A DNA stretch of 64,000 nucleotides from Candidatus Marinacidobacterium sp. (GCA_965204755.1 OZ242011.1:3289656-3353655), one strand, 5' to 3'; shown: positions 28,729-41,870, counted from the stretch's first letter. Numbers and translations: made by a program. Notes: generated by a model not told the origin, from the letters alone.

Positions 28729-28760
28729 TCTTGACATCGCGGAGGGTGCCGTCTACTATT
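28729..28760 (+). promoter_or_regulatory. sigma70-like promoter TTGACA-N17-TACTAT driving repeat copy 3
   Basis: Consensus -35 and near-consensus -10 with a 17-nt spacer, read directly from the sequence. Predicted TSS lands at the start of the conserved core. Confidence 0.45.
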
Positions 28761-28764
28761 CCGG

Positions 28765-28838
28765 TTGCACTTACCCCCCCCGGGATCGTGTCCTGATCGG
28801 CAACCGGTTGCCTTTCTGGATACCCCGGGGGCGATTCT
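28765..28838 (+). repeat. copy 3 of the tandem element, with a near-consensus promoter immediately upstream
   Basis: CACTTAC8GGGATCGTGTCCTGATCGGCAACCGGTTGCCTTTCTGGATACCCCGGGGGCGATT. The downstream ~80 nt are also conserved with copy 1. Confidence 0.5.
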
Positions 28839-29076
28839 CTTAACGGGGAGAGGGCGGCTGTCGGGCAAGCGGGTTCGGCGTCGTCGGGGGTGTTCTGAGC
28901 AGGCTCAGCCGGTCGGCGGCTGGGCGGCGCTGCGGATGTGGCGGTTGGGCGAGCACTTGCGAGTTCGTCCTTGGCTCGACCGGTCGGCCGGGCCGCGGAT
29001 GTGACCTCGCGGGCCGCGTCGCGCGTTCGTCTCCTCCGCTGTCTCTCATCCTGTCGCGGATTCGCGCGGAGGGCTC

Positions 29077-29829
29077 GTGTACGAGACGGACCGGCATGGG
29101 GCGCGAGATGCCGCCCCGGATGACGAAGTGGATGATCGGTCCACTCGCCGCAACCGGGTCGGCGGTGTCGCCAGCGAAGTGTCGAACGCGTCCCTTCCGC
29201 CGCTGCCGCTTCAGCGAGCGGCCGTGTTCATCGATGGAAGCAACTGGTACTACGGACTCAGAGGAATCGGGGTTCGCAGCGGCCATCTCCATTATTCGGA
29301 AGTGGCTCGCAAACTCGCCTGCGGCCGGAATGTGTGCGCTGTCCGATACTATGTCGGGAAAGTCACTACGCCTATCGCGACGGCCAAGGCGCAAGACGAC
29401 TTCTTGGCGGCGCTGCGCGAGCAGGGAGTGCGTGTCTCTTTGGGCCGGATGCAGCGCAATCCCATGAGCCGGCGGGCCGCGGATGACCGGAGTCGGCTGG
29501 CTCGCGCCTTCGCGGATCGCGACCATGAGGTTCCGCCCGACCTGATGCGAACGATCGACGCGTTCTGTCGCTCGCGGCCGCCCGAATACCGGGAGAAGCA
29601 GGTGGATACACGGATCGCGGTGGATCTCGTGGACCTGGCGCACCGAGACCGGTACGATGTGGCTTATCTACTCTCCGCAGACGCCGACTTCCTTCCGGCA
29701 GTCCAGGTAGCGCGTCGTCTCGGTAAGGGAGTGTTCGCTGTCGCTCCATCCGGAGGGGACGAACTCAAGGAGGCAGCGACCGGTTTCATAAAGGTCTCGG
29801 CAGACTGGTTCGAGGGCCTGTACGCCTGA
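29077..29829 (+). CDS. NYN-domain (LabA-like/DUF88) PIN-fold ribonuclease
   Basis: AAVFIDGSNWYY ... VDTRIAVDLVDLA ... LLSADADFLPAV motifs. Lower GC. Three possible GTG starts (29077, 29128, 29179). Confidence 0.7.
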   Translation: MYETDRHGARDAAPDDEVDDRSTRRNRVGGVASEVSNASLPPLPLQRAAVFIDGSNWYYGLRGIGVRSGHLHYSEVARKLACGRNVCAVRYYVGKVTTPIATAKAQDDFLAALREQGVRVSLGRMQRNPMSRRAADDRSRLARAFADRDHEVPPDLMRTIDAFCRSRPPEYREKQVDTRIAVDLVDLAHRDRYDVAYLLSADADFLPAVQVARRLGKGVFAVAPSGGDELKEAATGFIKVSADWFEGLYA

Positions 29830-30081
29830 GTAGATCGCGGTTCTCGATGACTCATCGAGACGGCGCCGAGGTCGCGGTCGTCGGCAGGCGACGGATCGCA
29901 GACATAGGCCCGCGCTTAGCTCCGGGTGGCTCCCGTTCTCGCTGCGGCCGCGGAGGCGGGTGGATGCGTACGGGTCTCGGTATCGGAGGCGGATGAGCGC
30001 GTCCGGGCGGGGTGGTCGGATCTGTAGGCGGCAGGGCATACGATCTACCGGCGGCGGCGCATGCGGGGGGAGTTCGGGGTG

Positions 30082-31032
30082 ATGGATGCCCGGCGGGTGG
30101 TTCGGCGGTTGGTTCTCACCGGGGCGGCCGAGGAGGTCGTGGACCCGGGAGGCGGGTTCGCGGTGGCGGGGCGGGCCGGGGACACCGAGATCGCGGTGGC
30201 CGGGGGGCTGCCGCGGACGGCGGCGGCGCGGGCGCGGGGGCTCCGGGCCGCGTGGAGGCGGCGGGTGGGGAACACGCCGCGGACGCTCGTCCTGCTCGCG
30301 GATGATCTCGGTGGGGCTGCGTCCGTCCCGCGGGTGCTCGTCGCCGGGCCGGCGGAGGCCGACGCGGGGCCGTACTCGGTTCCGGCGGAAGCGCTGCTCG
30401 CCGCGGTGGAGGAGTACGCCGAGCGGCCCGACGGGGTGGGGCGGATCCATGCGCTCTCGCGGCAGTTGGAGCGGCTCGCCGGCATCTGCGGCGCGCGGGC
30501 GCGGGCGCCCGAATCCGAAGACTCGTTGGAGCGGCTGCGCGGGACGGAGTGGTGGGAGGGCGCGAGGGAGCGGACGGCCGCGATCCGGCCGGGCGACGGC
30601 TGGCGGGAGATCCTCGGCGCGCTCGGTTACCGGATCGAGCGGCGTCCGGTCGGGTACGCGCTGCGGAGCGGCGGCGGCGCGGTGGCCGCGGTCGTGATTC
30701 CCCGCCGCGACTCGGCCGAGTTCGACGCTTGGGACGACGGCCGTCCTCCCGAAGCGCGGCTCGCGGAACTGGCTCGCGCCGAGGGGGCGGGTCGCGGGAT
30801 GTTCGCCGCCGACGACCGGCTGCGCCGGTTCCGGTTCGACGCGCCGGGCAGCGACGGCGATTGCGGGTGGATCGAACTCGACGCGACCGCGCTCGGCGAG
30901 GAGAATCGACCGTTCCTCGCCCTGCTCGCCGCGGACCCGCTCGAGGTCGCGACCGCTGACGGGCGTTCGGTCGAGCCCGGCGCGCTCGGCCTCGCGACGC
31001 GGGAAGTCGCGGCGTCGCCGGTTTCGGCGTGA
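30082..31032 (+). CDS. standalone paralog of the N-terminal domain of the downstream methyltransferase (function unknown)
   Basis: 316 aa, roughly 45% identical over its full length to residues 1-300 of the 31066..34989 product. Shared blocks: MDA.RVV, RVGN.P..L.LLAD, GPYSVPA, DWWEGA, RPPE.RLA.L, RLR.FRFDA, DWIELDA..L.EE.RPFLAL. Confidence 0.7.
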   Translation: MDARRVVRRLVLTGAAEEVVDPGGGFAVAGRAGDTEIAVAGGLPRTAAARARGLRAAWRRRVGNTPRTLVLLADDLGGAASVPRVLVAGPAEADAGPYSVPAEALLAAVEEYAERPDGVGRIHALSRQLERLAGICGARARAPESEDSLERLRGTEWWEGARERTAAIRPGDGWREILGALGYRIERRPVGYALRSGGGAVAAVVIPRRDSAEFDAWDDGRPPEARLAELARAEGAGRGMFAADDRLRRFRFDAPGSDGDCGWIELDATALGEENRPFLALLAADPLEVATADGRSVEPGALGLATREVAASPVSA

Positions 31033-31065
31033 CGCGCCAGGCCGGAGGACACGGAGTTTCCGACG

Positions 31066-34000
31066 ATGGATGCTGAGCGGGTCGTCAGTACGCTGATCGG
31101 GGACGGGATCGCCGAGGAGGCGAAGCCGCAGGGGGAGTTCGTGCTGTCCGCGCGGATCGGCCGGACGGAGGTCAGCGTTGCCGGATCGCTCTCCGCGGCG
31201 TCGGCGGGCGCGAAGTTGCGGAGCCGGTGGAAGCAGCGGGTCGGGAACAGGCCGCTGAAACTGCTCCTGCTCGCGGATGTGTCGGGCGGCGACGACCGCG
31301 TCGTGGTCGTCGGCCCGTCGAAGGCCGACCAGGGGCCGTATTCCGTCCCGGCCACGGGGCTCTTGGAGAAACTCCGGGCGTTCGCCGATCGACCGGACAA
31401 GGGGGCGCGGCTGCGCTGGCTCACCCGCGAGTTGCAGCGGCTGGGTCTTTCCGGCATTCCCGGAGTTCTGGTGCGGGGTCTGCTGACCGAGCACACGCTG
31501 GAACGCTGGCGGGAGCGCGACTGGTGGGAGGGCGCGAAGCGGACGACCGCCGCCGTCGGGTCGGGAGACACTTGGCGGGACCTCTTCGGCAAACTCGGCT
31601 ACGAGTTGGAACAACAGCCGGAGGGCTACTTTCTGCGGGCCGGGGCGGCGCCGGTCGCGGCGGCGATCGCGTTCAGCGAGTCGGACCAGTTCGACCGCTT
31701 CGACGAAAACAACCGCCCGCCCGAGGGACGGCTCGCCGACCTGTGCGCGTCCGCGAACCTGCGCTACGGGATACTCGCGGCCCGCGGGAGGTTGCGCCTC
31801 TTCCGGTTCGATGCGCTGGACGGGAGCGGCGCCTCCGACTGGATCGAACTCGACGCCGCCGAACTCCGGGAAGAGGATCGGCCGTTCCTCGCCCTCTTCG
31901 CCTCCGAGTCGCTGGTTCCTGACGGTCGCTTCGATGCGGTGCTGAGCGACTCGCGCCGATACGGGGTGGAACTCTGGAAGCGGCTGGACAACCGCATCCG
32001 GGACCGCGCGCTCCCGGTGCTTGCCGAGGAGATGGAGGTCTGGGCGAAGGCAACCGGACTCGATCTGTCGGACCCGGCAGTCCGCAAGGACCTGGAACAG
32101 GCCTCCCTGACGCTGGCGTTCCGGCTGTTGTTCGTTCTCTACGCCGAGAGCGCCGGGTATCTGCCGATGAGCAACGCCGAGTACGAGGGTGCCAGTCTCA
32201 CGAGACTCGTACGGGAAGCGAGGCGGACGAGGGATCGGCTCGACGACAAGTCCACGGCGCTGTGGCTCCGGTTCGTGGTGCTGGTGCAGGCCATGCGCGG
32301 CGGCAACTCTGCCTGGAAGGTGCCGGCCTACAACGGAGCCCTGTTCTCCTCGGACGCTTTCCTCGGGGCGGAGACCCTGGAGCGCCTGTCGCTTCGGGAT
32401 CCCGGGTTCGGCAGCGTCCTGACACTGCTCGGTTGGGACGAGAAGCACGATTGCGGCGTGGACTACTCCACCATCGAGATCGGCCATTTGGGACACATCT
32501 ACGAGTCCCTGCTCACTCGGCAACTGACGCTGGCGCAGCGGGACCTGGTGTACGACGCGAAGAAGGACCGGTACCGCCCGCCGAAATTCAGCGAAGCCAG
32601 GGAGCCCGTCGTTTCCGCCGGGTCGCTGCTCTGGCAAACCCATCTCGGCGGAAGGAAGGCCGGGGGCGTGTACTACACCCCGTCCCCGCTGGTGCGGCAC
32701 CTCGTTGAGCGGGCGGTCGCGCCGGCGTTCGAGCGGCACCTCGACCAAGTGCGGAAGACGGCGGAGACCGACCCGGAGAGCGCCGCCGACCAGTTGCTCG
32801 ATTTCGCCGTGCTCGACCCGGCGTGCGGGAGCGCCCACTTCCTCGTGGAAGTCTTGGATCGTCTCGCCGACTTGACGGCTCGCTTCCTCGGAAACCAGCC
32901 GCTCCCGGCGATCGCGGCGCGCATGGAGACTCTGCGCGCCGCCGCCGGAAGCGACAGCGGAATCCGGGACATGACGCTACTGCGCCGTCTTCTGCTGAAG
33001 CACTGCATCTACGGCGTGGATGTGAGTCCGATGGGCGTCGAGATCGCCACCCTGTCGCTTTGGTTGGCCGCGTTCGTGCCCGGTCTCTCGCTGTCCTACC
33101 TCGGGCGGAATGTCATTCGCGGAAACTCGCTGCTCGGAGTCGCCGATCGGGAAACCGTGGTGAAGCCGCACGCGTTCGAGAGCGATGAACTCCGGGAAAG
33201 TCTGAAGAATGCAGCGGAGGCGGCCGCCGAGTTGGCTGACAATCCGGACCGGACTCCCGAGGAGTATGACCAGAGTTCGGCGGCGGACCATGCCGCCCAA
33301 ACGTTCGCGGCGGGTGCGAAGCGACTCTTCGATCTGTGGACTGCCGAGGCGGAGGTTTCGGACTGCCGGAGGTATCTTGGGGGTCGGGGCAAAGCGATTC
33401 TCGACGACGATCTCGACGATCGTGGTCGGGAGCTTGTACCAGCGGCCGCCGACTACGCCCGGCGATGGGATGTCCTTCACTGGCCGGTCGCCTTCCCCCA
33501 TGTCTTCGCGCGGGAGCGGCCGGGATTCGACGCTGTTGTCGGCAATCCTCCGTGGGAAGAGGTCACTGTCGAGGAACTCGACATCTATGTGATGGTGAGT
33601 CCCGGACTGAACACGCTTCCGGAGGATCAGCGGCTCCTGGCGGTCGCCGAACTCGACGAACAGGATCCGGCGCTGCGGTCGCGCGTTCTTCGGGAGAAGG
33701 GCCGGGCGAGGACTCAGAGGCGGGGACTCGGTGTCGGAGAATACGAAGGCTCCCCCGGCGATCCAGACCTCTACAAGTACTTCTGCCAGCGCTACCGGAA
33801 ACTGCTGCGGGCCGACGGGGCGTTCGGTGTCGTCCTGCCGAGGACGGCTTTCAGCGCCAAGGGGTCGGCGAAGTTCCGCGAGTGGCTCTACGGTCAGATC
33901 ACGGTAGATCGGGTCGATTTCTTGGTGAACACGAAGCAGTGGGCCTTCGACAGCACGCCGAAGTACACGATCGCCCTGTTGGCGGCACGGAACCGGAGGT

Positions 34001-34989
34001 CGCCACCGAGTCACCGGGCGGAGTTCGCGGGCACGGCTGATTCGCCCGAGGCCTGGAGGAGGCAAGTGTCGCAAGATGGCGTCGGTCTTGCGGCAGGGTG
34101 CTTCGGCCCCGAATGGGAGACGCCCCTCGTTCGTTCGCAGGACGAAGCGGATCTGCTTGAACGAGTTCGTCGCGGTTCGCGATTCCCGCTGGGGTCGGGA
34201 AGTCGGTGGTGGTGCTTTCCCGTGGCCGAACTTCATGAAACGAACGACAGACCCCTTTGGCTGGCGCAGACCTCCGGTCTTCCGCTCTGGAAGGGTGCGA
34301 GTTTCGGACCGTACGAGCCAAGAGGGACGGACGGCCGTCATTTCCCGCAGGAGGAGGAGTTGCTCCGCCGCAAACTCCACAAGCGCTCGCCGGGCAGCGG
34401 CTCACTGCTTGGACGAAAGTCCAAAACAGCACGCCAAGCCGCGGTGCGGAAGGAGGTGAGACGCGCCCGCGTCGCCTTTCACGATGTAGCCCGTGCGACG
34501 GACCCGCGCACCGTAGTCGCCTGCCTGATCCCCCCTACAGTTCTCCTGACCAACACGGCGCCCTATCTCGCGTTCCTTCACGGTGCGGAGAGGGAGCAGG
34601 CAGCCTGCCTGGGTGTCCTGAACAGTCTTCCGTTCGATTGGCAGGCCCGGCGGTTCGTCGAACTCCATGTGAACTTTTTCATCCTTGAGGGATTGATCGT
34701 TCCGGACATGGAGGAGAGCGACTTCGAGGTCGTTGCCGGGGCGTCGGCGCGGCTTTCCGCCGTGGACGACCGTTTCGCGGACTTTGCGAAGGCTACCGGG
34801 GTCAAGTGCGGTCCCGTCGAGGAGGATGAACGGAGCGAATTGCGAGCGGAGATCGATGCCCGCGTCGCCCGCGCCTGGAAACTCGACGAGAACGACCTCG
34901 ACCTGATGTTCGCCGATTTCAGCGAGTCGGCGGTGTCGGCGGACTACCGGGAAGCCGTGCGAATCCGTCTGCGGGCGTTGAACGCCTGA
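31066..34989 (+). CDS. PglX/Eco57I-like N6-adenine DNA methyltransferase (1307 aa) with extra N-terminal domain
   Basis: Helical region typical of PglX and type IIG enzymes (LLFVLYAESAGYLP...YNGALF...IGHLGHIYESLL). Motif I LDPACGSAHFL and motif IV VVGNPPW, followed by a long C-terminal target-recognition-like region. Confidence 0.8.
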   Translation: MDAERVVSTLIGDGIAEEAKPQGEFVLSARIGRTEVSVAGSLSAASAGAKLRSRWKQRVGNRPLKLLLLADVSGGDDRVVVVGPSKADQGPYSVPATGLLEKLRAFADRPDKGARLRWLTRELQRLGLSGIPGVLVRGLLTEHTLERWRERDWWEGAKRTTAAVGSGDTWRDLFGKLGYELEQQPEGYFLRAGAAPVAAAIAFSESDQFDRFDENNRPPEGRLADLCASANLRYGILAARGRLRLFRFDALDGSGASDWIELDAAELREEDRPFLALFASESLVPDGRFDAVLSDSRRYGVELWKRLDNRIRDRALPVLAEEMEVWAKATGLDLSDPAVRKDLEQASLTLAFRLLFVLYAESAGYLPMSNAEYEGASLTRLVREARRTRDRLDDKSTALWLRFVVLVQAMRGGNSAWKVPAYNGALFSSDAFLGAETLERLSLRDPGFGSVLTLLGWDEKHDCGVDYSTIEIGHLGHIYESLLTRQLTLAQRDLVYDAKKDRYRPPKFSEAREPVVSAGSLLWQTHLGGRKAGGVYYTPSPLVRHLVERAVAPAFERHLDQVRKTAETDPESAADQLLDFAVLDPACGSAHFLVEVLDRLADLTARFLGNQPLPAIAARMETLRAAAGSDSGIRDMTLLRRLLLKHCIYGVDVSPMGVEIATLSLWLAAFVPGLSLSYLGRNVIRGNSLLGVADRETVVKPHAFESDELRESLKNAAEAAAELADNPDRTPEEYDQSSAADHAAQTFAAGAKRLFDLWTAEAEVSDCRRYLGGRGKAILDDDLDDRGRELVPAAADYARRWDVLHWPVAFPHVFARERPGFDAVVGNPPWEEVTVEELDIYVMVSPGLNTLPEDQRLLAVAELDEQDPALRSRVLREKGRARTQRRGLGVGEYEGSPGDPDLYKYFCQRYRKLLRADGAFGVVLPRTAFSAKGSAKFREWLYGQITVDRVDFLVNTKQWAFDSTPKYTIALLAARNRRSPPSHRAEFAGTADSPEAWRRQVSQDGVGLAAGCFGPEWETPLVRSQDEADLLERVRRGSRFPLGSGSRWWCFPVAELHETNDRPLWLAQTSGLPLWKGASFGPYEPRGTDGRHFPQEEELLRRKLHKRSPGSGSLLGRKSKTARQAAVRKEVRRARVAFHDVARATDPRTVVACLIPPTVLLTNTAPYLAFLHGAEREQAACLGVLNSLPFDWQARRFVELHVNFFILEGLIVPDMEESDFEVVAGASARLSAVDDRFADFAKATGVKCGPVEEDERSELRAEIDARVARAWKLDENDLDLMFADFSESAVSADYREAVRIRLRALNA

Positions 34990-35002
34990 TCGTCGTCGCG
35001 CG

Positions 35003-38000
35003 GTGAGTCGGCGTCCGCTTCCGCCGCCCCCCGCGGCCGTGTCGGTGCGTCCGACCCTGCTCGACAACCTCGAATTCGGGACCCACCGAGTCGGACTCGG
35101 CGCTCTCGCCTCCGACGATCCGAAGGACGCTCCGGTGTCCGTCGCCACCGGGTATGTGAATCTCGGGGGGCTCGCGGCGCTCGCGCAGGTCACGGAGACG
35201 CCGGCACGGCCGGTGCGGCTCCTGATCGGGGTCGCGCCTCCGCCCGGCGGCGGAGGAGCGCGGGCTTTGGTCAGGAAGTTCTTCGACGAGGCGCTTCAGG
35301 AGGTCCGCCGCGACCGGAACTTCGGGCGCTTTCCGCCGAGCCGGGCGAGGAGGAGTATCGGCCCGGTGGCCGAGTGGCTGAAGCGGCCCGAGGTCGAAGT
35401 CCGGCGGTACCAGGGAGCGTTCCTCCACGGGAAGGCGTACTTGTTCGGCGACGCCGGCAACCCGCGGGCGGCGCTCGTGTCCTCGGCGAACCTGACCGCC
35501 GCCGGGATGGAGAAGAACCTGGAACTCGGCTTGGTCGAGTACGGCCCGGACACCGTGGCCAAGGCCATCCGCTGGTTCGACCGCCTGTGGAAGTCCGACC
35601 AGGCCCGGGACTTCAAGGAGACGCTGGAGAAGTTGCTGGGCGCGGACCCGCTCCTCGACGCGCTGGAAGATCCGCGGGCGATCTACCTCCGGATCCTGCT
35701 CGAGTACTTCGGGGACGAGTTGGAGAAGGATCCGCCGCGGCCGCAGGCGGTCACCCTGGCCGACTTCCAGTGGGACGGGTTCCGGCGGGCGCTCCGGATC
35801 CTGGACAAGTGCGGCGGCGTGATCTACGCGGACGGCGTCGGCACCGGCAAGACGGAGATCGGGCTGGCGCTGCTGGAGCGGTACGCGGTCGGGGAAGGCA
35901 AACACGCGCTGGTGGTGGCGCCGGCGCAACTGGTGAAGACCTGGCAGGACCGGATCGACGAGGGAAACCTGCCGGGCCGGGTCGTTTCCTTCCACCAGTT
36001 GGCCGACGACCGGCGACTGAACCCGGAGGGGCGCGGCCGACACCTCCCCGCCGACAAGGACACCTACCGGCTGATCGTCGTGGACGAAGCGCACGCCTTC
36101 CGCAATCCGGACACCGGTTGGCACCGGGCGCTCTCCCGGCTGCTCGGCGGGAAACCCAAGCACGCGGTCTTCCTCACGGCCACGCCGATCAACAACGGCC
36201 TGCCGGACCTCTTCCACCTGGTGATGGCCTTCGCCCGCCACGACGCGGCGTTCGCCGAGCACGGGATCCGCTCGCTGCGGGCGCTGTTCCGGTCGGCGGG
36301 GGCGTTCAGCCGGGACGGGGAGAACCTGGACGCGGACCGCCTGTTCCCGCTCGCCGACCTGGTGAGCGTCCGGCGCGACCGGGCGTTCATCGAGAAGCAC
36401 TACCCGGACGCCAAGTTCCCGGACGGGAGGCCGCTGCGCTTCCCGAAGCCTCGACTCGAGACGGCGCGCTACGCGATAGACGAGGTATGGCCCGGGCTGG
36501 TCGCCGAGATCACTGACGCCGTGAACGAACTGACCCTCGCCCGCTACCGCCCCGAGCACTACGCGGTCGGTGAGGCGAGGGAAGAGGACCGCAACGATAC
36601 GGGGATCACCGGCCTGCTGCGCTCGGCGATCCTCAAGCGGTTCGAGTCCTGCCACGAGTCCTGCCGCCTGACCGTGGAGCGCATGGAGAAGGCGCACGAG
36701 GCGTTCCTCGCGGCCTGGGATGCCGGGTTCGTTCCCGGCTCCGAGGCGCTGCGGGAAATCGTGGAGGCGGACCTCGACGAGACGGCGGCGGCCGCGTGGC
36801 TCGGCGACGAGATCGAAGACGGACGGAGCCGACCGGTCGCGGACTTCGACGCCCTGCTTCGGCAACAGGTGGCGGACGACCTGGAGCGCCTGCGGAGGTT
36901 CCACCGGCGCCTGGAAGAGACCCGGCAGGGCGACGATCCGAAACTCCGGCTGCTGGTCCGGCTGATCGAGGAGTCGCCGTCGGAAAAGGTCGTCGTCTTC
37001 TCCGCGTTCGCCGATACGGTGCGCTATCTCGACGAAAAACTCCCGGAGGTCGTGGACGGACGGCGCCGCGCAGTCGTGATCGGCGAGGAGACCGCGCCCG
37101 ACGAGCGGATGCGCCGCCTCGAGAGTTTCGCCCCGAAGAGCGTCGTCGGCGAGGATCACGAACTCCCGGACGAAGTGCAGGAAGTGGATCTCCTGCTCAG
37201 CAACGATGTCCTCTCGGAAGGGCAGAACCTGCAGCAGGCGGGAGCGGTCGTCAGTTACGACTTCCCGTGGAACCCGCAGCGGGTCGTCCAGCGCTACGGG
37301 CGGGTCATCCGGCTCAAGAGTCCGCACGACGAGGTGTATCTCACGACCATGCTGCCGGCGCCGGGAGACCTCGAACTCCTGCTGAAACTCGAGGCGGCCA
37401 TCCGGCGCAAACTGACCGCGGCGCGGCTCTACGGCATGGATGTGGAGGTGGTCGAAGGCGGGGCGCCGGAAGCGGAGTTGATGTCCTTCGCGGAGCGGCT
37501 CGCCGCCCACGACCCGACCCTGCTCCGCGAATCCGTCGGATCCGGCATCGGGGCGGCGTTCAGCGGGGAATCGCTGCGCGCGGACTTCCATCGCGCCCTC
37601 ATGGAAGGCGAACTGCGGAAACTGCGCAACCTGCCTTGGGGCGTGGGCGCCGCGTTCCGCCTGCCGGCGCCGGGCCGGTCCGGAGCGGCGACGGCAGCCC
37701 CCGGCGAATCGTGGGCCCGGACGCCGGGAGTCTTCTTCGCCTGCCGGACGAAGCGGGACGACCGCTATTGGCGTTTCGTACCGCTCGAGGGTTCGGGGAC
37801 CGGGCCGGAACCGGAGGCGCTCCACCTGCGGCGGATCGCGCCGCCGCGAGGAGTGTCCGGTCTGACCTCCCTGCCGGAGGAGGCGGACCTGGAACGGGCT
37901 TGGGAAACCGCCGCGGAGTCCATCGTGAAGGAGCACAACGAACTCGCCGAGGCGAGTTTGGAGGAGGCGTCGGTGGGGCCGCGGCAGGCGTGGGCGCTCG

Positions 38001-38284
38001 GCGTGCTCGACGACCCCGACCACGGCCTCTCCGACGAGGAAGCCGACCATGCTTCGGAGGCGCTCCGCGTGGGCCGCAGCCAGTCCATCCGCCGCGAGTT
38101 GGGCCGGATCGAGAAGGAACTCGAGGACAAGGCCATCTCCCTCTCCGAGGCCGCCGGCCGCATCGTGGCCCTCGTGAAGTCGGAGGGCCTCCGCCCGGTG
38201 GAGCCCCCCAAACCCCTCGAACCCATCGAAGGCGAACAAGACTTGGGCGTCGTCTGCTGGATGGCCCTCCTTCCTTCGGCGTAG
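35003..38284 (+). CDS. PLD-family nuclease fused to SNF2-family helicase (1093 aa)
   Basis: N-terminal HKD motif FLHGKAYLF...SSANLTAAGMEKNLELG. Helicase motifs DGVGTGKT, VVDEAHAFRN, LLSNDVLSEGQNLQ, VVQRYGRVIR. GTG start 14 nt after the methyltransferase stop. Confidence 0.8.
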   Translation: MSRRPLPPPPAAVSVRPTLLDNLEFGTHRVGLGALASDDPKDAPVSVATGYVNLGGLAALAQVTETPARPVRLLIGVAPPPGGGGARALVRKFFDEALQEVRRDRNFGRFPPSRARRSIGPVAEWLKRPEVEVRRYQGAFLHGKAYLFGDAGNPRAALVSSANLTAAGMEKNLELGLVEYGPDTVAKAIRWFDRLWKSDQARDFKETLEKLLGADPLLDALEDPRAIYLRILLEYFGDELEKDPPRPQAVTLADFQWDGFRRALRILDKCGGVIYADGVGTGKTEIGLALLERYAVGEGKHALVVAPAQLVKTWQDRIDEGNLPGRVVSFHQLADDRRLNPEGRGRHLPADKDTYRLIVVDEAHAFRNPDTGWHRALSRLLGGKPKHAVFLTATPINNGLPDLFHLVMAFARHDAAFAEHGIRSLRALFRSAGAFSRDGENLDADRLFPLADLVSVRRDRAFIEKHYPDAKFPDGRPLRFPKPRLETARYAIDEVWPGLVAEITDAVNELTLARYRPEHYAVGEAREEDRNDTGITGLLRSAILKRFESCHESCRLTVERMEKAHEAFLAAWDAGFVPGSEALREIVEADLDETAAAAWLGDEIEDGRSRPVADFDALLRQQVADDLERLRRFHRRLEETRQGDDPKLRLLVRLIEESPSEKVVVFSAFADTVRYLDEKLPEVVDGRRRAVVIGEETAPDERMRRLESFAPKSVVGEDHELPDEVQEVDLLLSNDVLSEGQNLQQAGAVVSYDFPWNPQRVVQRYGRVIRLKSPHDEVYLTTMLPAPGDLELLLKLEAAIRRKLTAARLYGMDVEVVEGGAPEAELMSFAERLAAHDPTLLRESVGSGIGAAFSGESLRADFHRALMEGELRKLRNLPWGVGAAFRLPAPGRSGAATAAPGESWARTPGVFFACRTKRDDRYWRFVPLEGSGTGPEPEALHLRRIAPPRGVSGLTSLPEEADLERAWETAAESIVKEHNELAEASLEEASVGPRQAWALGVLDDPDHGLSDEEADHASEALRVGRSQSIRRELGRIEKELEDKAISLSEAAGRIVALVKSEGLRPVEPPKPLEPIEGEQDLGVVCWMALLPSA

Positions 38285-38407
38285 CAGGGGCGGTTCGCTC
38301 CCTTCCGGGCAGAACGGAGGAACGCGCGGCGGGCCCGGCTGACGGTCGCGACTGCCGGGAAGCCGCGGGGCCTGCTCGGTATGGAGAGGCCGGCTAGACT
38401 GGTTCCC

Positions 38408-38830
38408 ATGCGCCCGGAAATCGGTTCGGGGCCGTTCCGACCCGGAACCGGCCGCCCCCCGCCGTATCTCGCCGGGCGGGAGGAAGAGCAGGACCTCTTC
38501 CTGATGCTGCTCGCCGACTTGAAGCCGTTTTCGACCGGCAGCGGGACGACTACTACGCCGACCGCCACGACGAACTGGAAACTGCGGCTGCTGCGCCCGG
38601 CGCGAGAGGTCGCGGAGGCATTCGAGTCGCAACCACTCCTCTCCGGCGAGGCACTGGAGGCCGCCATCCGGCGAGGTTTCGGCGAGGACGCCGGCGACGA
38701 CCAAGTGGACGCGACGGCGCAGCAGTTCCGCCATCTCGGCTACATCTGGCGGGCCGGAACCCGTCGGCCGTGGGAACCGGGCATTCCCAGCCTGATGGAC
38801 TACATCCTCCGGGAAGTCCCCGCGCCGTAA
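38408..38830 (+). pseudogene. internally deleted, frameshifted duplicate of the downstream AAA ATPase gene
   Basis: The first ~40 codons match the ATPase N-terminus (MRPEIGSGPFRPGTGRPPPYLAGREEEQDLF vs VRSEIGGGPFQPGSGVLPPHLAGREREQDLF). The last ~80 codons match its C-terminus almost exactly (LRLLRPAREVAEAFESQ...PGIPSLMDYILREVP). The intervening ~850 nt are missing. A linker runs in a shifted frame and a 2-nt deletion restores it. Confidence 0.55.
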
Positions 38831-38943
38831 GCCGGCGAGCCGCCTCCGGAATCTCTGCGGTGCGGGAAGCGCTCCACGACCCCCGAGAACCACGAGGGAT
38901 TCGCCGCCGCTCGGCGCCGGGACTTCCGGCTAAACTGGTTCTC

Positions 38944-40065
38944 GTGCGCTCTGAAATCGGTGGGGGGCCGTTCCAGCCCGGTTCCGGCGTACTCCCGCCG
39001 CACCTCGCCGGGCGGGAGCGGGAGCAGGACCTCTTCCGGACGCTGCTCGCCCGACTCGACCGCGGCGAGGCGCCGCCCGGAGAAGTCATCCTCTACGGGC
39101 CGCGCGGCAACGGCAAGACGGCGCTCCTCGCGTGGGTCAGCGAGTTTGCGAGCGAGTCCACCGGCGTGGATGTCGAGGAACGCACGCCGTCGGAGTTCGA
39201 TTCCCCGGCCGGACTGGCCGAGTTGTTGTTGCCGAAGTCCTGGTGGAAGACCGTCGGCCCCGAGGAGGTCGGCGTTCGGGGGATCACTTGGCGCCCGGGC
39301 CGGCGATCGGCAGCCCCGACCCCCGCCGAAGTCCTCGCTCTTCGGGCCGGGAGGAAACCGTTGGTCGTGCTTCTCGACGAAGCGCACACTCTCGACCCCG
39401 AAGTCGGCCGCGCTCTCTTGAACGCGGCGCAGAAGGTCCGGCGCTCGGCGCCGTTTCTCCTGGTGTTGGCGGGAACTCCGAACCTTCGCGACCACTTGGC
39501 GTCCATGGGCGCCTCTTTCTGGAACCGCGGCCGGAAGTTGCGGATCGGACGCCTGGACGAGAGCGCCGCGGCGGAGGCGATACGGGAGCCGCTGGCGGCC
39601 GAAGACATCACCATCGCGGACGATGCGTTGGAGCACTTGGTTCGCGACAGCCACGGGTATCCGTTCTTCGTCCAACTCTGGGGCGAAGCGGTGTGGGCTC
39701 GCGCCGTCGAGACCTCACGGCAACAGGTCGTCTCCGAGGATGTGCGCGCCTGCCAAACCGTTTTCGACGAGCAGCGGGACGACTACTACGCCGACCGTCA
39801 CGACGAATTGGAAGAACTGCGGCTGCTGCGCCCGGCGCGGGCGGTCGCGGAGACCTTCGAGTCGCGTCCCGCCCTCTCCGGCGGCGAACTGGAGGCCGCC
39901 ATCCGGCGAGGTTTCGGCGAGGACGCCGGCGATGACGAAGTGAACGCGGCGGCGCAGCAGTTCCGCCATCTCGGCTACATCTGGCGGGCCGGAACCCGTC
40001 GGCTGTGGGAACCGGGCATTCCCAGCCTGATGGACTACATCCTCCGGGAGGTCCCCCCGCCATAG
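38944..40065 (+). CDS. AAA+ ATPase (AAA_16/ORC-Cdc6-like P-loop NTPase)
   Basis: ILYGPRGNGKTALL Walker A, VVLLDEAHTL Walker B. GTG start preceded by a duplicated upstream region. Confidence 0.7.
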   Translation: MRSEIGGGPFQPGSGVLPPHLAGREREQDLFRTLLARLDRGEAPPGEVILYGPRGNGKTALLAWVSEFASESTGVDVEERTPSEFDSPAGLAELLLPKSWWKTVGPEEVGVRGITWRPGRRSAAPTPAEVLALRAGRKPLVVLLDEAHTLDPEVGRALLNAAQKVRRSAPFLLVLAGTPNLRDHLASMGASFWNRGRKLRIGRLDESAAAEAIREPLAAEDITIADDALEHLVRDSHGYPFFVQLWGEAVWARAVETSRQQVVSEDVRACQTVFDEQRDDYYADRHDELEELRLLRPARAVAETFESRPALSGGELEAAIRRGFGEDAGDDEVNAAAQQFRHLGYIWRAGTRRLWEPGIPSLMDYILREVPPP

Positions 40066-40085
40066 AATTCCGGCGGGAGGCGGCG

Positions 40086-41501
40086 ATGTTGACGGGGATG
40101 CGCCTGCGGGGCTTCAAGTCGTGGAGGGATACGGGCGACATCGAGTTACGGCCGATCACCGCGTTCTTCGGCCTGAACGGTTCCGGGAAGACGAGTCTCC
40201 TGCAGGCGCTGCTGCTGCTGAAACAGACGGCGGAATCGCCGGGCCGCGGGCAGGTCTTCCACTTCGGGGACGGTCGGTCGGCGGTGGACCTCGGCGACTT
40301 CACCGATGCGGTGCATCGGCGCGATGCCGATGCCGCGCTGGGCGTTTCCCTCGATTGGACCGCGGACTCCGAGGTACGCGTTCGCGACGGCGACTTGCGC
40401 GAAGTCGCCGTCTCGGATTCCCTCGGGTTCTCGGTGGTCGCGGCGCGGGAAGGCGAGAGATCGCCGGAGACGACCGTGCGCGAGATTACTCATCGCGTCG
40501 GGAACTCCTGCTTCGGGATGCGGCGCGGGAAACGGGGTTACCGGTTGTTCGCCGATGCCGGGGAGTTTCGCTTCCGCAGGCGGCGGCGCCATGCGGAGAC
40601 TCTTCCCCCGCCGGTGTCCTGCTACAGGTTTCCGGCCGCTTCTCGCCAGGTGTTCGAGAACGCCGACTGCCTCTCCGCTCTCGAGCGTCCCCTGGAGCGG
40701 CAGTTGGACCGCCTCTACTACCTGGGGCTCTCGAGGGCGCGTCCGGAGCGACGGTATGTTTGGGTCGGCGCCCGCCCGCCGGATGCGGGGCGGTCGGGGG
40801 AGTTGGCCGTGGCGGTCCTCCTGGCGGCGCGCGCGGACGCAGACGGGATCGCGACGGAGCAGGGCGGGGACGGGCGCAGCCCGGAGGAGCAGGTGGAGCA
40901 CTGGCTGCGGGAAATGGGCCTCGTCCATACCTTCCGCGTCGCGCCGCTGGTCCCGGGACTGTTCGAAGTGCTCGTTCGCCAGACGCCGCACTCGGCGGAA
41001 GTCCCGATCACCGGTGCGGGTTTCGGGGTCGCGCAGGCGCTTCCGGTGTTGGCGCTCTGCTTCCACGCCCCCGAGGGTTCCACCATCCTCCTCGAACAGC
41101 CGGAAACCCGACTGCATCCGTCGGCCCAGTCCGCGCTCGCCGACGCGCTCCTCGACGCGCGGCGGCGCCGGGGGATCCAGTTCCTGATCGAGAGCCACAG
41201 CGAGCACTTGCTGCGGCGGCTCCAGCGGCGCGTCTCCGATGAGACTCTCTCCCACGAGGAAGTCGGGCTGTGGTATTGCGAGAACGAAGAAGGGGAGTCG
41301 TGCCTCACCGACTTGTCGCTGGATCGTTTCGGCGCCACCGGGTATTGGCCGGAGGGGCTCTTCGGAGACCAGTTCCGCGAAGTGGTCGAGATCGCCGAGA
41401 ATCGCCTGCGCCGGAGCATGGCCGAGGAAGAGAAGGAACCGGGCGCGCCCGCCTCGCCCTCGCGCCCGGAAGCGGGCGGGAGCGTGCCGGAAGCCGATTG
41501 A
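40086..41501 (+). CDS. ABC-type ATPase (AAA_21) with C-terminal DUF3696-like domain
   Basis: FFGLNGSGKTSLLQALLLL Walker A; LLEQPETRLHP D-loop; ESHSEHLL H-loop; C-terminal LWYCENEEGESCLTDLSLDRFGATGYWPEGLFGDQF. Confidence 0.7.
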   Translation: MLTGMRLRGFKSWRDTGDIELRPITAFFGLNGSGKTSLLQALLLLKQTAESPGRGQVFHFGDGRSAVDLGDFTDAVHRRDADAALGVSLDWTADSEVRVRDGDLREVAVSDSLGFSVVAAREGERSPETTVREITHRVGNSCFGMRRGKRGYRLFADAGEFRFRRRRRHAETLPPPVSCYRFPAASRQVFENADCLSALERPLERQLDRLYYLGLSRARPERRYVWVGARPPDAGRSGELAVAVLLAARADADGIATEQGGDGRSPEEQVEHWLREMGLVHTFRVAPLVPGLFEVLVRQTPHSAEVPITGAGFGVAQALPVLALCFHAPEGSTILLEQPETRLHPSAQSALADALLDARRRRGIQFLIESHSEHLLRRLQRRVSDETLSHEEVGLWYCENEEGESCLTDLSLDRFGATGYWPEGLFGDQFREVVEIAENRLRRSMAEEEKEPGAPASPSRPEAGGSVPEAD

Positions 41502-41513: not shown

Positions 41514-41870
41514 CTACGCGCCGCTGCCGGTCAGGTCGCCGGACAGGCGGGCGCTCACCAGGCGGTTCAGGCTGACGCCTTCCTCCGCCGCCCGCAGTGC
41601 GAGAGCGCGGTGGACTTCCGGCGGGAGGCGGACGAGGAACCGGCCGCTGTAGCGCCGGTCGGCGAGCGGGGTCGGGATGTGTTCACCGTGCGCCTCCAGG
41701 TCGCGCAGAACCTCGGCCACCAGCGAGCGGATACCGGAGAAGGCGCGGTTCGGGGTGGCGGCGAGCCGACTGAGCGACGGGAACTCCAAGCAGAGCCCCA
41801 CATGCTCCCCGTCCTCGGGAGACCAGGTGACGCGGTAGGTGTAGCGGTCGCGGATCGGCGGTCGGTTCAC
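41514..41870 (-). CDS. hicB: HicB-family antitoxin (RNase-H-like fold + RHH), orphan (no hicA)
   Basis: YRVTWSPEDGEHVGLCLEFPSL ... SGRFLVRLPPEVHRALALRAAEEGVSLNRLV, typical HicB architecture. Confidence 0.7.
   Translation of the reverse strand: MNRPPIRDRYTYRVTWSPEDGEHVGLCLEFPSLSRLAATPNRAFSGIRSLVAEVLRDLEAHGEHIPTPLADRRYSGRFLVRLPPEVHRALALRAAEEGVSLNRLVSARLSGDLTGSGA

What the first reader, a model, noticed from the sequence alone, without database searches (positions are those of the whole stretch)
35003..38284. PLD (HKD) nuclease fused N-terminally to a SNF2 helicase with a ~300-aa uncharacterised C-terminal extension
The HKD motif FLHGKAYLF and SNF2 motifs lie in one 1093-aa polypeptide, directly downstream of the methyltransferase and probably translationally coupled to it. 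In DISARM the PLD nuclease (DrmC) and the SNF2 helicase (DrmD) are separate proteins; here they are fused, and the DISARM core (DrmA and DrmB) is absent. This points to a distinct restriction-like module: methyltransferase marks self, helicase-nuclease restricts.
Basis: partly seen in the sequence, partly recalled or inferred. Interest (0 to 1): 0.55.

Follow-up and report, generated by a model that had tools for sequence, protein, structure and literature searches.

The report
Two-gene methylase plus PLD-SNF2 restriction module
The fused PLD-nuclease/SNF2-motor protein is real and always sits behind one large DNA methyltransferase, forming an unnamed two-gene, restriction-modification-like defence module related to known systems (MANTIS/Gao_RL, Hma, DISARM) but simpler than any of them.

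Summary
Observation confirmed. ORF 35003-38284 (+) encodes a 1093-aa protein with one HKD/PLD nuclease domain, a SNF2 ATPase core and a 313-aa C-terminal domain that has no sequence or fold match outside its own family.

It is one half of a strictly conserved pair. In 79 of 80 genome loci from Acidimicrobiia, Gemmatimonadota, Acidobacteriota and Thermoleophilia, and on plasmids of Halorubrum lacusprofundi and Mycobacterium gallinarum, an orthologous ~1300-aa Eco57I/MmeI/DrmMI-like N6-adenine methyltransferase lies upstream. The stop and start usually overlap or lie within 9 nt. No third gene is conserved: no DrmA/DrmB, no DUF499, no DUF3780.

In sister strains the nuclease-motor gene is 94-99% identical, while the methyltransferase is mosaic and its C-terminal half falls to 51-65%. 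This is the pattern expected for swapping of restriction-modification specificity domains.

Best reading, by inference only: the methyltransferase recognises and marks self DNA, and a dimerising PLD-SNF2 motor nuclease restricts unmarked DNA.

The concept is not new. HKD-helicase effectors paired with methylases are known from Gao_RL/MANTIS, Hma/BREX-related type 2 and the CRISPR-associated "C3a139" family. This two-gene family is unnamed and is annotated only as "helicase-related protein" plus "hypothetical protein". Verdict: new variant of a known kind, moderate interest.

The parts
31066..34989 (+). Methyltransferase/specificity subunit, 1307 aa. Layout: N-terminal domain, helical spacer, gamma-class N6-adenine MTase, C-terminal target-recognition region.
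   Evidence: Pfam Eco57I at 66.8 bits, plus N6_Mtase and MmeI_Mtase. PADLOC REase_MTase_IIG E 1e-127 over aa 216-1288, and DrmMI E 1e-65. An orthologue lies upstream of the helicase in 79 of 80 loci.
31066..32085 (+). MTase N-terminal domain (aa 1-340): two alpha/beta subdomains followed by a long helix. It has a weak, non-significant restriction-endonuclease-like fold and no conserved catalytic (D/E)xK.
   Evidence: AlphaFold2 pLDDT 89. Foldseek against PDB gave only E 0.03-0.2, to Hjc, tRNA-splicing endonuclease and cap-snatching endonuclease. Conserved residues include D71, but no invariant Lys or ExK.
32815..32841 (+). MTase motif I, the AdoMet-binding site (DPACGSAHF, aa 584-592).
   Evidence: Located. 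Conserved across orthologues.
33541..33558 (+). MTase motif IV, the catalytic motif (GNPPWE, aa 826-831), typical of N6-adenine methyltransferases.
   Evidence: Located. Invariant in 38-42 orthologues.
33166..34986 (+). Variable C-terminal half of the MTase (aa ~700-1307, including the presumed target-recognition domain). It is exchanged by recombination between sister strains.
   Evidence: Amino-acid identity to L088 is 98-100% over aa 200-600 but 51-61% over aa 700-1200. DNA identity to L081 is 51-79% here, against 98-100% in the adjacent helicase gene. G+C is also lower, 0.63-0.67.
34990..35002 (+). 13-nt spacer between the MTase stop codon and the GTG start of the nuclease-motor gene.
   Evidence: Sequence read. 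In 34 of 62 measurable related loci the equivalent spacing is -14 to +9 nt, often a 1- or 4-nt overlap.
35003..38284 (+). Restriction subunit, 1093 aa: PLD(HKD) nuclease, SNF2 ATPase and a family-specific C-terminal domain. Alternative starts lie at 35039 and 35045.
35045..35602 (+). PLD/HKD nuclease domain (aa ~15-200) carrying a single HKD motif at nt 35420-35446.
   Evidence: PLDc_2 at 36.1 bits, above its cut-off. H142, K144 and N163 are invariant. Relatives match the full-length model.
35738..36232 (+). SNF2 ATPase lobe 1 (aa ~246-410), with Walker A at nt 35834-35854 and the DEAH box at nt 36083-36094.
   Evidence: SNF2-rel_dom and ResIII hits. Motif coordinates. PDB relatives are Rad54, Ino80 and ISWI.
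36233..36922 (+). Insertion between the two ATPase lobes (aa ~411-640). It is conserved within the family.
   Evidence: Conserved blocks in alignment A1. No Pfam domain.
36923..37342 (+). SNF2 ATPase lobe 2 (aa ~641-780), with motif VI at nt 37289-37312.
   Evidence: Helicase_C at 53 bits. RapA lobe 2 is the best PDB match.
37343..38281 (+). Family-specific C-terminal domain (aa 781-1093): a small four-stranded sheet plus a helical bundle, ending in the invariant strand GVVCW.
   Evidence: A search of 1.84 billion representative proteins found 212 matches. The full-length ones are ~1050-1170-aa proteins carrying the domain at their C-terminus, and the rest are shorter sequences, apparently fragments. 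AlphaFold2 pLDDT 79. No Foldseek PDB hit below E = 1. Conserved in all homologues.

Best explanation
The finding is the restriction half of a self-contained two-gene, ATP-dependent, restriction-modification-like defence module.

Gene 1 (31066-34989) is a large single-chain N6-adenine methyltransferase of the Eco57I/MmeI/DrmMI/PglX type. It carries its own target-recognition region. By homology, it is inferred to recognise a short asymmetric DNA sequence, methylate one adenine and so mark host DNA as self.

Gene 2 (35003-38284) supplies what gene 1 lacks: a SNF2-type double-strand DNA translocase and a metal-independent PLD nuclease. Each polypeptide has only one HKD motif, so two copies must come together to build one catalytic site. 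This is known for Nuc and BfiI and has been shown by cryo-EM for MANTIS MtsD.

The inferred sequence of events is as follows. The methyltransferase bound at an unmethylated site recruits or licenses the motor nuclease, perhaps through the family-specific C-terminal domain. ATP hydrolysis then moves DNA through the motor. Cleavage follows when two PLD domains pair, most likely between two sites.

Shown here: the domain content, intact catalytic motifs, the strict and deep gene pairing, the absence of any conserved third gene, and the exchange of the methyltransferase C-terminal half beside a constant nuclease-motor gene.

Inferred only: methylation specificity, physical contact between the two proteins, translocation, the cleavage mode and anti-phage activity.
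For: Domains and motifs.

Pairing. A MTase orthologue (46-59% identity) lies upstream of the helicase in 79 of 80 loci from at least five phyla. Only two gene clusters are conserved among 960 flank ORFs, and the next most frequent occurs in 10 loci. Spacing is -14 to +9 nt in 34 of 62 loci.

Depth. Remote members, only 29-30% identical in the C-terminal domain, keep PLDc_2, SNF2, Helicase_C and an upstream Eco57I-type MTase. The pair also occurs on Halorubrum lacusprofundi pHLAC01 and on Mycobacterium gallinarum pJCM6399, where the two genes overlap by 4 nt.

No third partner. No DUF499, DUF1998 or AAA_16 recurs among 55 clusters of large flank proteins or among 59 first-downstream genes.

Specificity swapping. 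In four sister-strain loci inserted at the same chromosomal site, the helicase-nuclease is 94-99% identical, while the MTase is 74-94% identical and mosaic. DNA identity jumps sharply from 51-79% to 98-100% at about nt 35100.

No nuclease signature in the MTase. Its N-terminal domain has no conserved (D/E)xK.

Defence context. The neighbours are PADLOC defence candidates: HEC-03 and HEC-09 in the window, and PDC-M41B, HEC-01A-like and PDC-M68B inserted between the two genes in other loci. [quoted passage not shown]

Precedent. MANTIS shows that a MTase-defined site can trigger a dimeric PLD-helicase effector (bioRxiv 10.64898/2026.09.23.753747).
Against: - There is no experimental evidence for any member of this family.
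- In MANTIS the methyltransferase cannot work without two further proteins (MtsA, MtsB), and cleavage has not been reconstituted in vitro. A two-gene system may therefore need host factors that I cannot see.
- In DISARM the PLD nuclease DrmC is dispensable (bioRxiv 10.1101/2021.12.28.474362).
- HmaA alone protects without its methylase (PMC11232893).
- About a third of loci have a split or truncated MTase ORF, or several kilobases between the two genes.
- The MTase N-terminal domain has a weakly nuclease-like fold, so an unconventional active site is not excluded.
- In the window's own lineage an ORC/Cdc6-like AAA_16 ATPase gene always follows the pair and could be a lineage-specific third component.
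- No Shine-Dalgarno sequence or overlap supports translational coupling in this particular window.
Confidence: 0.68

Rival explanations
1. The large methyltransferase is by itself a complete Type IIG (MmeI/Eco57I-like) restriction-modification enzyme. The PLD-SNF2 protein would then be an independent or auxiliary effector that happens to be linked to it.
For: PADLOC's best hit for the MTase is REase_MTase_IIG (E 1e-127, aa 216-1288). The N-terminal domain gives weak Foldseek hits to PD-(D/E)xK-type nucleases.
Against: The IIG model does not cover the N-terminal 215 aa. No MmeI_N or other nuclease family is hit. No invariant Lys or (D/E)xK is present in 38-42 orthologues. The Foldseek hits are not significant (E >= 0.013). 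Chance linkage cannot explain a partner in 79 of 80 loci with overlapping stop and start codons across phyla and in archaea.
Confidence: 0.1
2. It is a reduced or degenerate member of a larger known system (class 1 DISARM, or BREX-related type 2 / MANTIS / Hma). It would still depend on an additional ATPase encoded elsewhere, or, in this lineage, on the downstream AAA_16 gene.
For: There are partial matches to DrmD, DrmMI, DrmC, HmaA and 'phospholipD_antiphage'. An ORC/Cdc6-like AAA_16 gene follows the pair in the window and in L081, L088 and L089. MtsA of MANTIS is an ORC/Cdc6-clade AAA+ protein (bioRxiv 10.64898/2026.09.23.753747).
Against: All NCBIfam equivalog scores are far below their cut-offs: DrmD 112 against 610, and phospholipD_antiphage 110 against 1100. 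DrmA, DrmB, DUF499 and DUF3780 are absent from the window island. No third conserved gene or recurrent Pfam family appears in 80 loci. AAA_16 has no tblastn match in any of the 80 loci and no PADLOC match. The MTase is Eco57I-type, not the COG1743 type reported for those operons (PMC7641849).
Confidence: 0.12
3. The PLD-SNF2 protein is a modification-dependent (Type IV, SauUSI-like) restriction enzyme whose C-terminal domain reads foreign base modifications. The neighbouring methyltransferase would serve another purpose.
For: The domain order is the same as in SauUSI: N-terminal PLD, SF2 ATPase, then a C-terminal domain of unknown function (the SauUSI description is quoted in bioRxiv 10.64898/2026.09.23.753747).
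Against: SauUSI (7CLG) is not among the PDB sequence matches, which are all SNF2 ATPases. Type IV enzymes have no need of a cognate methylase, yet the pairing here is near-obligate. The C-terminal domain is highly conserved, whereas the variable part of the system lies in the MTase.
Confidence: 0.05
4. It is not a defence system. The pair would serve host chromosome biology, such as epigenetic regulation or repair with a SNF2 remodeller.
For: In many loci the pair is flanked by housekeeping genes. SNF2 ATPases such as RapA have housekeeping roles.
Against: The distribution is patchy: 319 matches among 185,579 species genomes. The pair occurs on plasmids and on an integrase-bearing element. It is an insertion between conserved housekeeping flanks that are 98% identical between strains. 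Specificity-domain alleles turn over. Defence genes are embedded in or adjacent to the pair. The nuclease motif is intact.
Confidence: 0.05

Closest known systems
MANTIS (Gao_RL / Gao_29; BREX-related type 2): MtsA-MtsB-MtsC-MtsD (bioRxiv 10.64898/2026.09.23.753747; PMC12839542)
   Same: An N6-adenine methyltransferase defines the site and marks self. The effector is a single polypeptide with an N-terminal HKD/PLD nuclease and an SF2 helicase-like ATPase, and it dimerises to form one PLD site. It is an RM-like defence acting against unmethylated DNA.
   Different: MANTIS needs a DUF499 AAA+ ATPase (MtsA) and a small co-regulator (MtsB) to load and activate the methylase; neither is present here. 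The MTase here is a 1300-aa Eco57I/MmeI-like enzyme with its own N-terminal domain. The effector here has a family-specific 313-aa C-terminal domain and scores only 110 bits against the 1100-bit cut-off of NCBIfam 'phospholipD_antiphage'. I take that model to represent the Gao_RL effector, but I did not verify this.
Hma / BREX-related type 1 (HmaA-HmaB-HmaC) (PMC11232893, PMC8565338, PMC12839542)
   Same: A Swi2/Snf2 helicase fused to a nuclease, encoded with an N6-adenine methylase. The locus tolerates embedded defence genes.
   Different: HmaA carries a C-terminal PD-(D/E)xK nuclease and an N-terminal TUDOR domain, and a DUF499 ATPase is a core gene. Here the nuclease is an N-terminal PLD and there is no DUF499. 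The PADLOC HmaA match is confined to ATPase lobe 2.
Class 1 DISARM (DrmD, DrmMI, DrmA, DrmB, DrmC)
   Same: It contains a SNF2-like helicase, a large N6-adenine methylase of related type (DrmMI, E 1e-65) and a PLD nuclease.
   Different: The PLD and SNF2 parts are fused here. The defining DrmA/DrmB core is absent. DrmD and DrmC equivalog scores are far below their cut-offs.
Type III and Type ISP restriction-modification enzymes (Mod/Res; LlaGI/LlaBIII)
   Same: Inferred working logic: a methylase with its own TRD recognises an asymmetric site and hemimethylates it, and an ATP-driven SF2 motor-nuclease cuts when two complexes meet. The gene order is also the same two-gene arrangement, M then R.
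   Different: Res and ISP motors are not SNF2 and carry PD-(D/E)xK/Mrr nucleases. Mod is a beta-class MTase. Here the nuclease is PLD and the MTase is a gamma-class Eco57I-like enzyme.
[not shown]
   Same: Restriction by a PLD nuclease that needs ATP hydrolysis by an SF2 motor and long-range communication along DNA. A cognate methylase is present.
'C3a139 HKD+Snf2' (Tthe_0931 family), a candidate accessory of type III CRISPR-Cas (PMC6546367)
   Same: It is the best PADLOC match (E 3.8e-38), co-linear over the HKD domain and SNF2 lobe 1, so the fusion architecture is the same.
   Different: It was defined by proximity to CRISPR-Cas cassettes. Its profile is 948 positions long. No pairing with an Eco57I-type MTase has been reported, and no cas genes occur here.

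Membership tests
PLD/HKD nuclease superfamily | Match to the PLD-like domain model above its curated threshold | tested here: met
   PLDc_2 at 36.1 bits against a cut-off of 27. Relatives cover model positions 9-132.
PLD/HKD nuclease superfamily | Conserved catalytic His, Lys and Asn of the HxK...(S/G)xN motif | tested here: met
   H142, K144, S161 and N163 are invariant in 18 sequences. There is one motif per chain, so a dimer is required; this step is an inference from Nuc, BfiI and MtsD.
SNF2 family ATPases | SNF2-related N-lobe and Helicase_C above threshold, with intact Walker A, DEAH and motif VI | tested here: met
   SNF2-rel_dom at 41.2 bits (cut-off 24.9) and Helicase_C at 53 bits. 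The top PDB relatives are all SNF2 enzymes.
Class 1 DISARM | Core genes drmA (helicase) and drmB (DUF1998) in the locus | tested here: not met
   Neither is present in the window island or its flanks. Neither recurs in 80 related loci.
Class 1 DISARM | DrmD and DrmC equivalog scores | tested here: not met
   NF038317 DrmD at 112 bits against 610, NF038318 at 85 against 950, and DrmC NF038319 at 32 against 133.
BREX-related type 2 / MANTIS (Gao_RL) | DUF499 AAA+ ATPase (MtsA) as a core gene | tested here: not met
   No DUF499 hit among the island proteins. DUF499 is not listed among the families hitting 55 clusters of large flank proteins or 59 first-downstream genes. No third conserved cluster exists.
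BREX-related type 2 / MANTIS (Gao_RL) | Small DUF3780 protein (MtsB) within the locus | tested here: not met
   No conserved small ORF cluster accompanies the pair; the largest is found in 9-10 of 80 loci. DUF3780 does not appear in the Pfam scans of window neighbours or of downstream genes. Not every small ORF was scanned individually.
BREX-related type 2 / MANTIS (Gao_RL) | HKD/PLD nuclease fused N-terminally to an SF2/Snf2 ATPase as the effector | tested here: met
   The architecture is shown. However, the score against NCBIfam NF042964 is 110 bits against a cut-off of 1100, so this is a distant relative and not an equivalog.
Type IIG restriction-modification enzymes (MmeI/Eco57I type) | Gamma-class N6-adenine MTase plus TRD in one long chain | tested here: met
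   PADLOC REase_MTase_IIG at 425 bits, plus Pfam Eco57I and MmeI_Mtase. Motifs I and IV are intact.
Type IIG restriction-modification enzymes (MmeI/Eco57I type) | N-terminal PD-(D/E)xK endonuclease domain with catalytic residues in the same chain | tested here: not met
   The N-terminal 215 aa lie outside the IIG model. No nuclease Pfam family is hit. There is no invariant (D/E)xK. Only non-significant fold hits were found. An unconventional active site cannot be excluded.
Type III restriction-modification | Res subunit with a C-terminal PD-(D/E)xK nuclease, and a beta-class Mod methylase | tested here: not met
   The nuclease is an N-terminal PLD and the motor is SNF2. The ResIII Pfam hit of 26.7 bits reflects only the generic SF2 lobe 1. 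The MTase is Eco57I-type.
Type IV SauUSI-like enzymes | Sequence relationship to SauUSI and independence from a cognate methylase | tested here: not met
   SauUSI is absent from the PDB sequence and profile matches. A MTase partner is present in 79 of 80 loci.
Restriction-modification-like defence (functional class) | Methylation by the MTase protects DNA from cleavage by the partner nuclease | not testable with these tools
   This needs methylome sequencing and restriction assays. Indirect support comes from C-terminal-half swapping in the MTase next to a constant nuclease-motor gene.

The most novel reading that the evidence does not exclude
The pair is a so-far unrecognised, autonomous two-component class of ATP-dependent restriction-modification enzyme. 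An MmeI/Eco57I-like methyltransferase-TRD chain has lost, or never had, its own nuclease. It works with a dedicated HKD-SNF2 'Res-like' subunit whose C-terminal domain shows no match to any solved structure and would dock it to the methylase. The class is spread by horizontal transfer among Actinomycetota, Gemmatimonadota, Acidobacteriota (many of them sponge symbionts) and haloarchaea. Current pipelines mislabel it as a Type IIG enzyme plus an unrelated 'helicase-related protein'.
Probability: 0.5. Interest if true: 0.55.

Novelty: new variant of a known kind. Interest (0 to 1): 0.42.

Why it matters
If the two genes are sufficient, this would be the simplest known arrangement in which a methyltransferase-defined site controls a PLD-helicase nuclease. 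It would need no BrxC/DUF499-type loader.

That would make it a useful minimal model for three open questions: how hemimethylating systems (BREX, DISARM, MANTIS) tell self from non-self, how SNF2 motors are coupled to nucleases, and what the new C-terminal domain does.

It would also correct annotation. The methylase is currently scored as a stand-alone Type IIG enzyme or as 'hypothetical protein', and the effector as 'helicase-related protein'.

The natural alleles with swapped C-terminal halves offer ready-made specificity variants. Cultured carriers exist for experiments: Mycobacterium gallinarum pJCM6399 and Halorubrum lacusprofundi pHLAC01.

Tried and rejected
- PDB sequence search with the MTase found nothing.
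- I looked for a conserved third gene in three ways: BLAST clustering of 960 flank ORFs, Pfam scans of 55 clusters of large flank proteins, and Pfam scans of 59 first-downstream genes. All were negative.
- I considered the downstream AAA_16 and AAA_21 ATPases, the NYN protein and HicB as system components and rejected them. They are absent from the 80 loci. AAA_21 and NYN match separate PADLOC candidates, HEC-03 and HEC-09.
- I considered ORF 30061-31032 to be a remnant of a replaced MTase. It is not close to the L081 allele (52% identity). It is conserved as a separate ORF in sister strains, so its status is left open.
- The promoter and terminator scan was uninformative for this high-GC DNA. 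Rfam found nothing in 27800-31100.
- Literature searches for a Halorubrum lacusprofundi methylome assignment and for an Eco57I + SNF2 + PLD pairing found no description of this pair.

Full report
**1. The observation**

The window is high-GC DNA (0.62-0.78). ORF 35003-38284 on the plus strand (GTG start, 1093 aa) has third-position GC of 0.84-0.96 throughout. I therefore take it as the real gene, and the overlapping 1324-aa antisense ORF as a compositional artefact.

Pfam places four matches on the protein:
- PLD-like domain at aa 127-196: PLDc_2, 36.1 bits against a cut-off of 27.
- SNF2-related domain: 41.2 bits against a cut-off of 24.9.
- ResIII.
- Helicase_C at aa 647-771: 53 bits.

Walker A (GVGTGKT) is at aa 278-284 and DEAH at aa 361-364. 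In an alignment of 18 homologues, H142, K144, S161, N163, the Walker A lysine, D361/E362/H364 and motif VI are all invariant. By sequence and by profile, the nearest solved structures are all SNF2 ATPases: RapA, Sulfolobus Rad54, Ino80 and ISWI. Residues ~781-1093 match nothing in Pfam, NCBIfam or PADLOC.

Two small caveats apply. In-frame GTGs at 35039 and 35045 are alternative starts, and gene callers on sister contigs used both forms. The 13-nt spacer after the methyltransferase stop codon shows no obvious ribosome-binding site. Co-transcription is therefore clear, but translational coupling in this window is only plausible.

**2. The partner gene and the surroundings**

ORF 31066-34989 (1307 aa) is an Eco57I/MmeI-type N6-adenine methyltransferase. 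Pfam hits are Eco57I at 66.8 bits, N6_Mtase and MmeI_Mtase. Motif I (DPACGSAHF) and motif IV (GNPPWE) are intact and conserved in orthologues. PADLOC scores it best as a Type IIG enzyme (E 1e-127, aa 216-1288) and next as DISARM DrmMI (E 1e-65).

The island runs from about 27.9 to 41.9 kb and lies between housekeeping genes: formamidase and a VWA protein on one side, CO/xanthine-dehydrogenase subunits on the other. It also holds:
- a NYN-domain gene (PADLOC HEC-09);
- an ORC/Cdc6-like AAA_16 ATPase, plus an internally deleted copy of it;
- an ABC ATPase matching HEC-03 (E 1e-112);
- a HicB antitoxin.

No DrmA, DrmB, DUF499 or DUF3780 is present.

**3. Relatives elsewhere**

The protein belongs to a large, well-conserved family. 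More than 2000 database proteins match. Full-length relatives of 1050-1120 aa share 50-57% identity and are annotated at most as 'helicase-related protein'.

A scan of one genome per species found 319 encoding stretches. The best 80 come from Acidimicrobiia, Gemmatimonadota/Longimicrobiales, Acidobacteriota, Solirubrobacterales/Gaiellales and others, and many are sponge-symbiont MAGs.

- In 79 of the 80 loci an orthologue of the window's methyltransferase (46-59% identity) is present. It lies upstream on the same strand in 77 and upstream but inverted in two, L030 and L065.
- Clustering all 960 flank ORFs gave only two conserved clusters, the helicase-nuclease and the methyltransferase. The next most frequent cluster occurs in 10 loci.
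- In 34 of 62 measurable loci the two genes are separated by -14 to +9 nt, frequently with 1- or 4-nt overlaps.
- Pfam scans of 55 clusters of large flank proteins and of 59 first-downstream genes found no family shared by more than two. Neither DUF499, DUF1998 nor AAA_16 appears in the listed results.
- Where the two genes are separated, the inserts are defence candidates or transposases: DUF5131/PDC-M41B, Schlafen-AlbA_2, a HEC-01A-like ABC ATPase, PDC-M68B, a Type II methylase and a YhgA-like transposase. [quoted passage not shown]
- Remote members, only 29-30% identical in the C-terminal domain, keep the same architecture and the same upstream methylase. One sits on an element with an integrase and a RepB-type primase.
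- The pair also occurs in cultured organisms, on Halorubrum lacusprofundi plasmid pHLAC01 and on Mycobacterium gallinarum plasmid pJCM6399. There RefSeq calls the methylase 'hypothetical protein'.

**4. The unexplained parts**

The C-terminal 314 residues were searched against 1.84 billion representative proteins. Only 212 matched. The full-length ones are ~1050-1170-aa proteins with the domain at their C-terminus, and the rest are shorter sequences, apparently fragments. The domain is therefore specific to this family.

The methyltransferase's N-terminal 340 residues model confidently (pLDDT 89) as two alpha/beta subdomains. Foldseek gave only weak, non-significant hits (E 0.03-0.2) to Holliday-junction resolvase Hjc, tRNA-splicing endonuclease and cap-snatching endonuclease. 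No invariant lysine or (D/E)xK motif exists in 38-42 orthologues. I therefore read it as a nuclease-like fold without the canonical active site. This fits a nuclease supplied in trans.

**5. Micro-evolution in sister strains**

Four metagenomic contigs carry the island at the same chromosomal site, with flanks 98% identical to the window.

| Gene | Identity to the window |
|---|---|
| Helicase-nuclease | 94-99% (amino acids) |
| Methyltransferase, whole protein | 76-94% (amino acids), mosaic |
| Methyltransferase vs L088, aa 200-600 | 98-100% |
| Methyltransferase vs L088, aa 700-1200 | 51-61% |
| Methyltransferase 3' half vs L081 (DNA) | 51-79% |
| Helicase gene vs L081 (DNA, ~nt 35100-38250) | 98-100% |

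The DNA identity to L081 jumps at about nt 35100 and falls again at about nt 38250. At least three different C-terminal halves, which include the presumed target-recognition region, are thus combined with one nearly constant nuclease-motor gene.

This is the pattern known for specificity determinants of Type I, Type III and Type IIG systems (established knowledge). It argues that sequence recognition resides in the methyltransferase and that the PLD-SNF2 protein is the generic effector.

**6. Mechanism**

Shown: domain content, intact motifs, obligate pairing, no conserved third partner, and variability confined to the methyltransferase.

Inferred:
- The methyltransferase binds a short asymmetric site and methylates one adenine, as MmeI, Eco57I, PglX and DrmMI do.
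- At unmethylated sites it recruits or licenses the PLD-SNF2 protein, possibly through the family-specific C-terminal domain, by analogy with the HsdR C-terminal domain in Type I enzymes.
- The SNF2 core translocates double-stranded DNA at the expense of ATP.
- Each chain has a single HKD motif, so two chains must pair to form one PLD active site. This holds for Nuc and BfiI and has been seen by cryo-EM for MANTIS MtsD (bioRxiv 10.64898/2026.09.23.753747). Cleavage should therefore favour DNA with two or more sites.

I put 0.68 on the general model and less on the details.

**7. Comparison with what is known**

The fusion is not new. An 'HKD+Snf2' family (C3a139) was listed in 2018 next to type III CRISPR-Cas loci (PMC6546367), and it is the best PADLOC match here (E 3.8e-38). 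SWI2/SNF2 helicases fused to PD-(D/E)xK or PLD nucleases were described in COG1743-methylase/DUF499 operons (PMC7641849). These were later named Hma (PMC8565338, PMC11232893) and reclassified as BREX-related systems. Their type 2 has an N-terminal HKD nuclease on the helicase (PMC12839542). Type 2, also called Gao_RL and now MANTIS, has been dissected experimentally (bioRxiv 10.64898/2026.09.23.753747).

The present family fails the membership tests of all these systems. It has no DUF499, no DUF3780, no DrmA/DrmB and a different methylase family. Its NCBIfam scores are five- to ten-fold below the equivalog cut-offs. It resembles Type III and Type ISP enzymes in logic and gene order but not in protein families.

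I found no paper describing this two-gene pair. That search covers only open-access texts and not REBASE.

**8. Verdict**

The finding is real.

It is best filed as a new variant of a known kind: a minimal, two-gene, RM-like module with a PLD-SNF2 effector and a new C-terminal domain.

Interest is moderate (0.42). A specialist would not be surprised by the concept. However, the simplicity of the system, its natural specificity alleles, its uncharacterised domain and its systematic mis-annotation make it a worthwhile experimental target.

Noticed in passing
window 30061-31032 (+): A 323-aa ORF directly upstream of the methyltransferase is a stand-alone paralogue of the MTase N-terminal ~290 residues (48% identity). 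Its G+C is higher (0.76-0.79) than that of the MTase. It is kept as a separate ORF at 90-96% identity in sister strains L088, L089 and L090, but it is not found as a separate gene in the 80 distant loci. It matches nothing in Pfam, NCBIfam or PADLOC. Whether it is a remnant or a lineage-specific accessory is open.
   Followed up: partly
window 38381-38830 and 38770-40065 (+): The 149-aa ORF is an internally deleted copy of the following ORC/Cdc6-like AAA_16 ATPase gene, with the same N- and C-terminal peptides. Sister strain L089 has two full tandem copies, while L081 and L088 have one. This points to ongoing duplication and deletion by recombination. AAA_16 always follows the helicase gene in this lineage but in none of the 80 other loci, and it has no PADLOC match.
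   Followed up: partly
window 40005-41501 (+); L081 15860-16909: The ABC ATPase matches PADLOC HEC-03 over its full length (E 1e-112). Its partner gene, present in sister strain L081 (349 aa, the other HEC-03 component), is missing from the window. Both genes are reported to be needed for HEC-03 defence, so the window copy is probably defective.
   Followed up: partly
window 29077-29829 (+): A low-GC (0.63-0.66) NYN-domain gene matches PADLOC candidate HEC-09 (E 5e-23). It is also present in sister strain L088.
   Followed up: partly
window 27896-28015, 28427-28511, 28722-28841: Three copies (76-100% identity) of an ~85-120-nt element containing the palindrome CGGCAACCGGTTGCCG lie in the 1.2-kb non-coding stretch at the left edge of the island. 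The only sigma-70-like promoter match in the region (28731-28759) falls within copy 3. There is no Rfam match. Shorter matches occur in L081.
   Followed up: partly
window ~35100 and ~38250 (compared with L081): DNA identity to the sister strain changes abruptly at both ends of the helicase-nuclease gene. It is 51-79% in the MTase 3' half upstream, 98-100% inside the gene and ~75% downstream. The conserved gene is thus an island between two variable segments. The left breakpoint lies about 100 nt inside the ORF, in the poorly conserved N-terminal tail.
   Followed up: yes
L086 3823-7950 (H. lacusprofundi HLAC_RS18405); L087 3916-7881 (M. gallinarum G6N42_RS30150): RefSeq annotates these 1321-1375-aa orthologues of the methyltransferase as 'hypothetical protein', although they carry the Eco57I methylase domain (the NPPW motif was checked in the H. 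lacusprofundi orthologue). Their partners are annotated only as 'helicase-related protein'.
   Followed up: yes
L004, L029, L041, L045, L073, L075, L079 (between MTase and helicase genes): In several loci (Longimicrobiales, Gemmatimonadota, Actinomycetota, Solirubrobacterales), 3.8-9.3 kb of other genes are inserted between the two genes of the pair. The inserts scanned (in L041, L045 and L075) include DUF5131/PDC-M41B, a Schlafen AlbA_2-HATPase protein, a HEC-01A-like ABC ATPase, PDC-M68B (DUF2326) and a Type II methylase; L009 carries a shorter insert with a YhgA-like transposase. In L030 and L065 the methylase is inverted relative to the helicase.
   Followed up: partly
L002, L012, L021, L036, L038, L062, L077, L078 and others: In a number of loci the methyltransferase reading frame is split into two ORFs or ends early. 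I did not establish whether this reflects pseudogenes, assembly or frameshift errors, or highly divergent C-terminal regions.
   Followed up: no
window 41514-41870 (-): A HicB-family antitoxin gene lies at the right edge of the island and is conserved in L081. I did not look for a HicA toxin partner.
   Followed up: no
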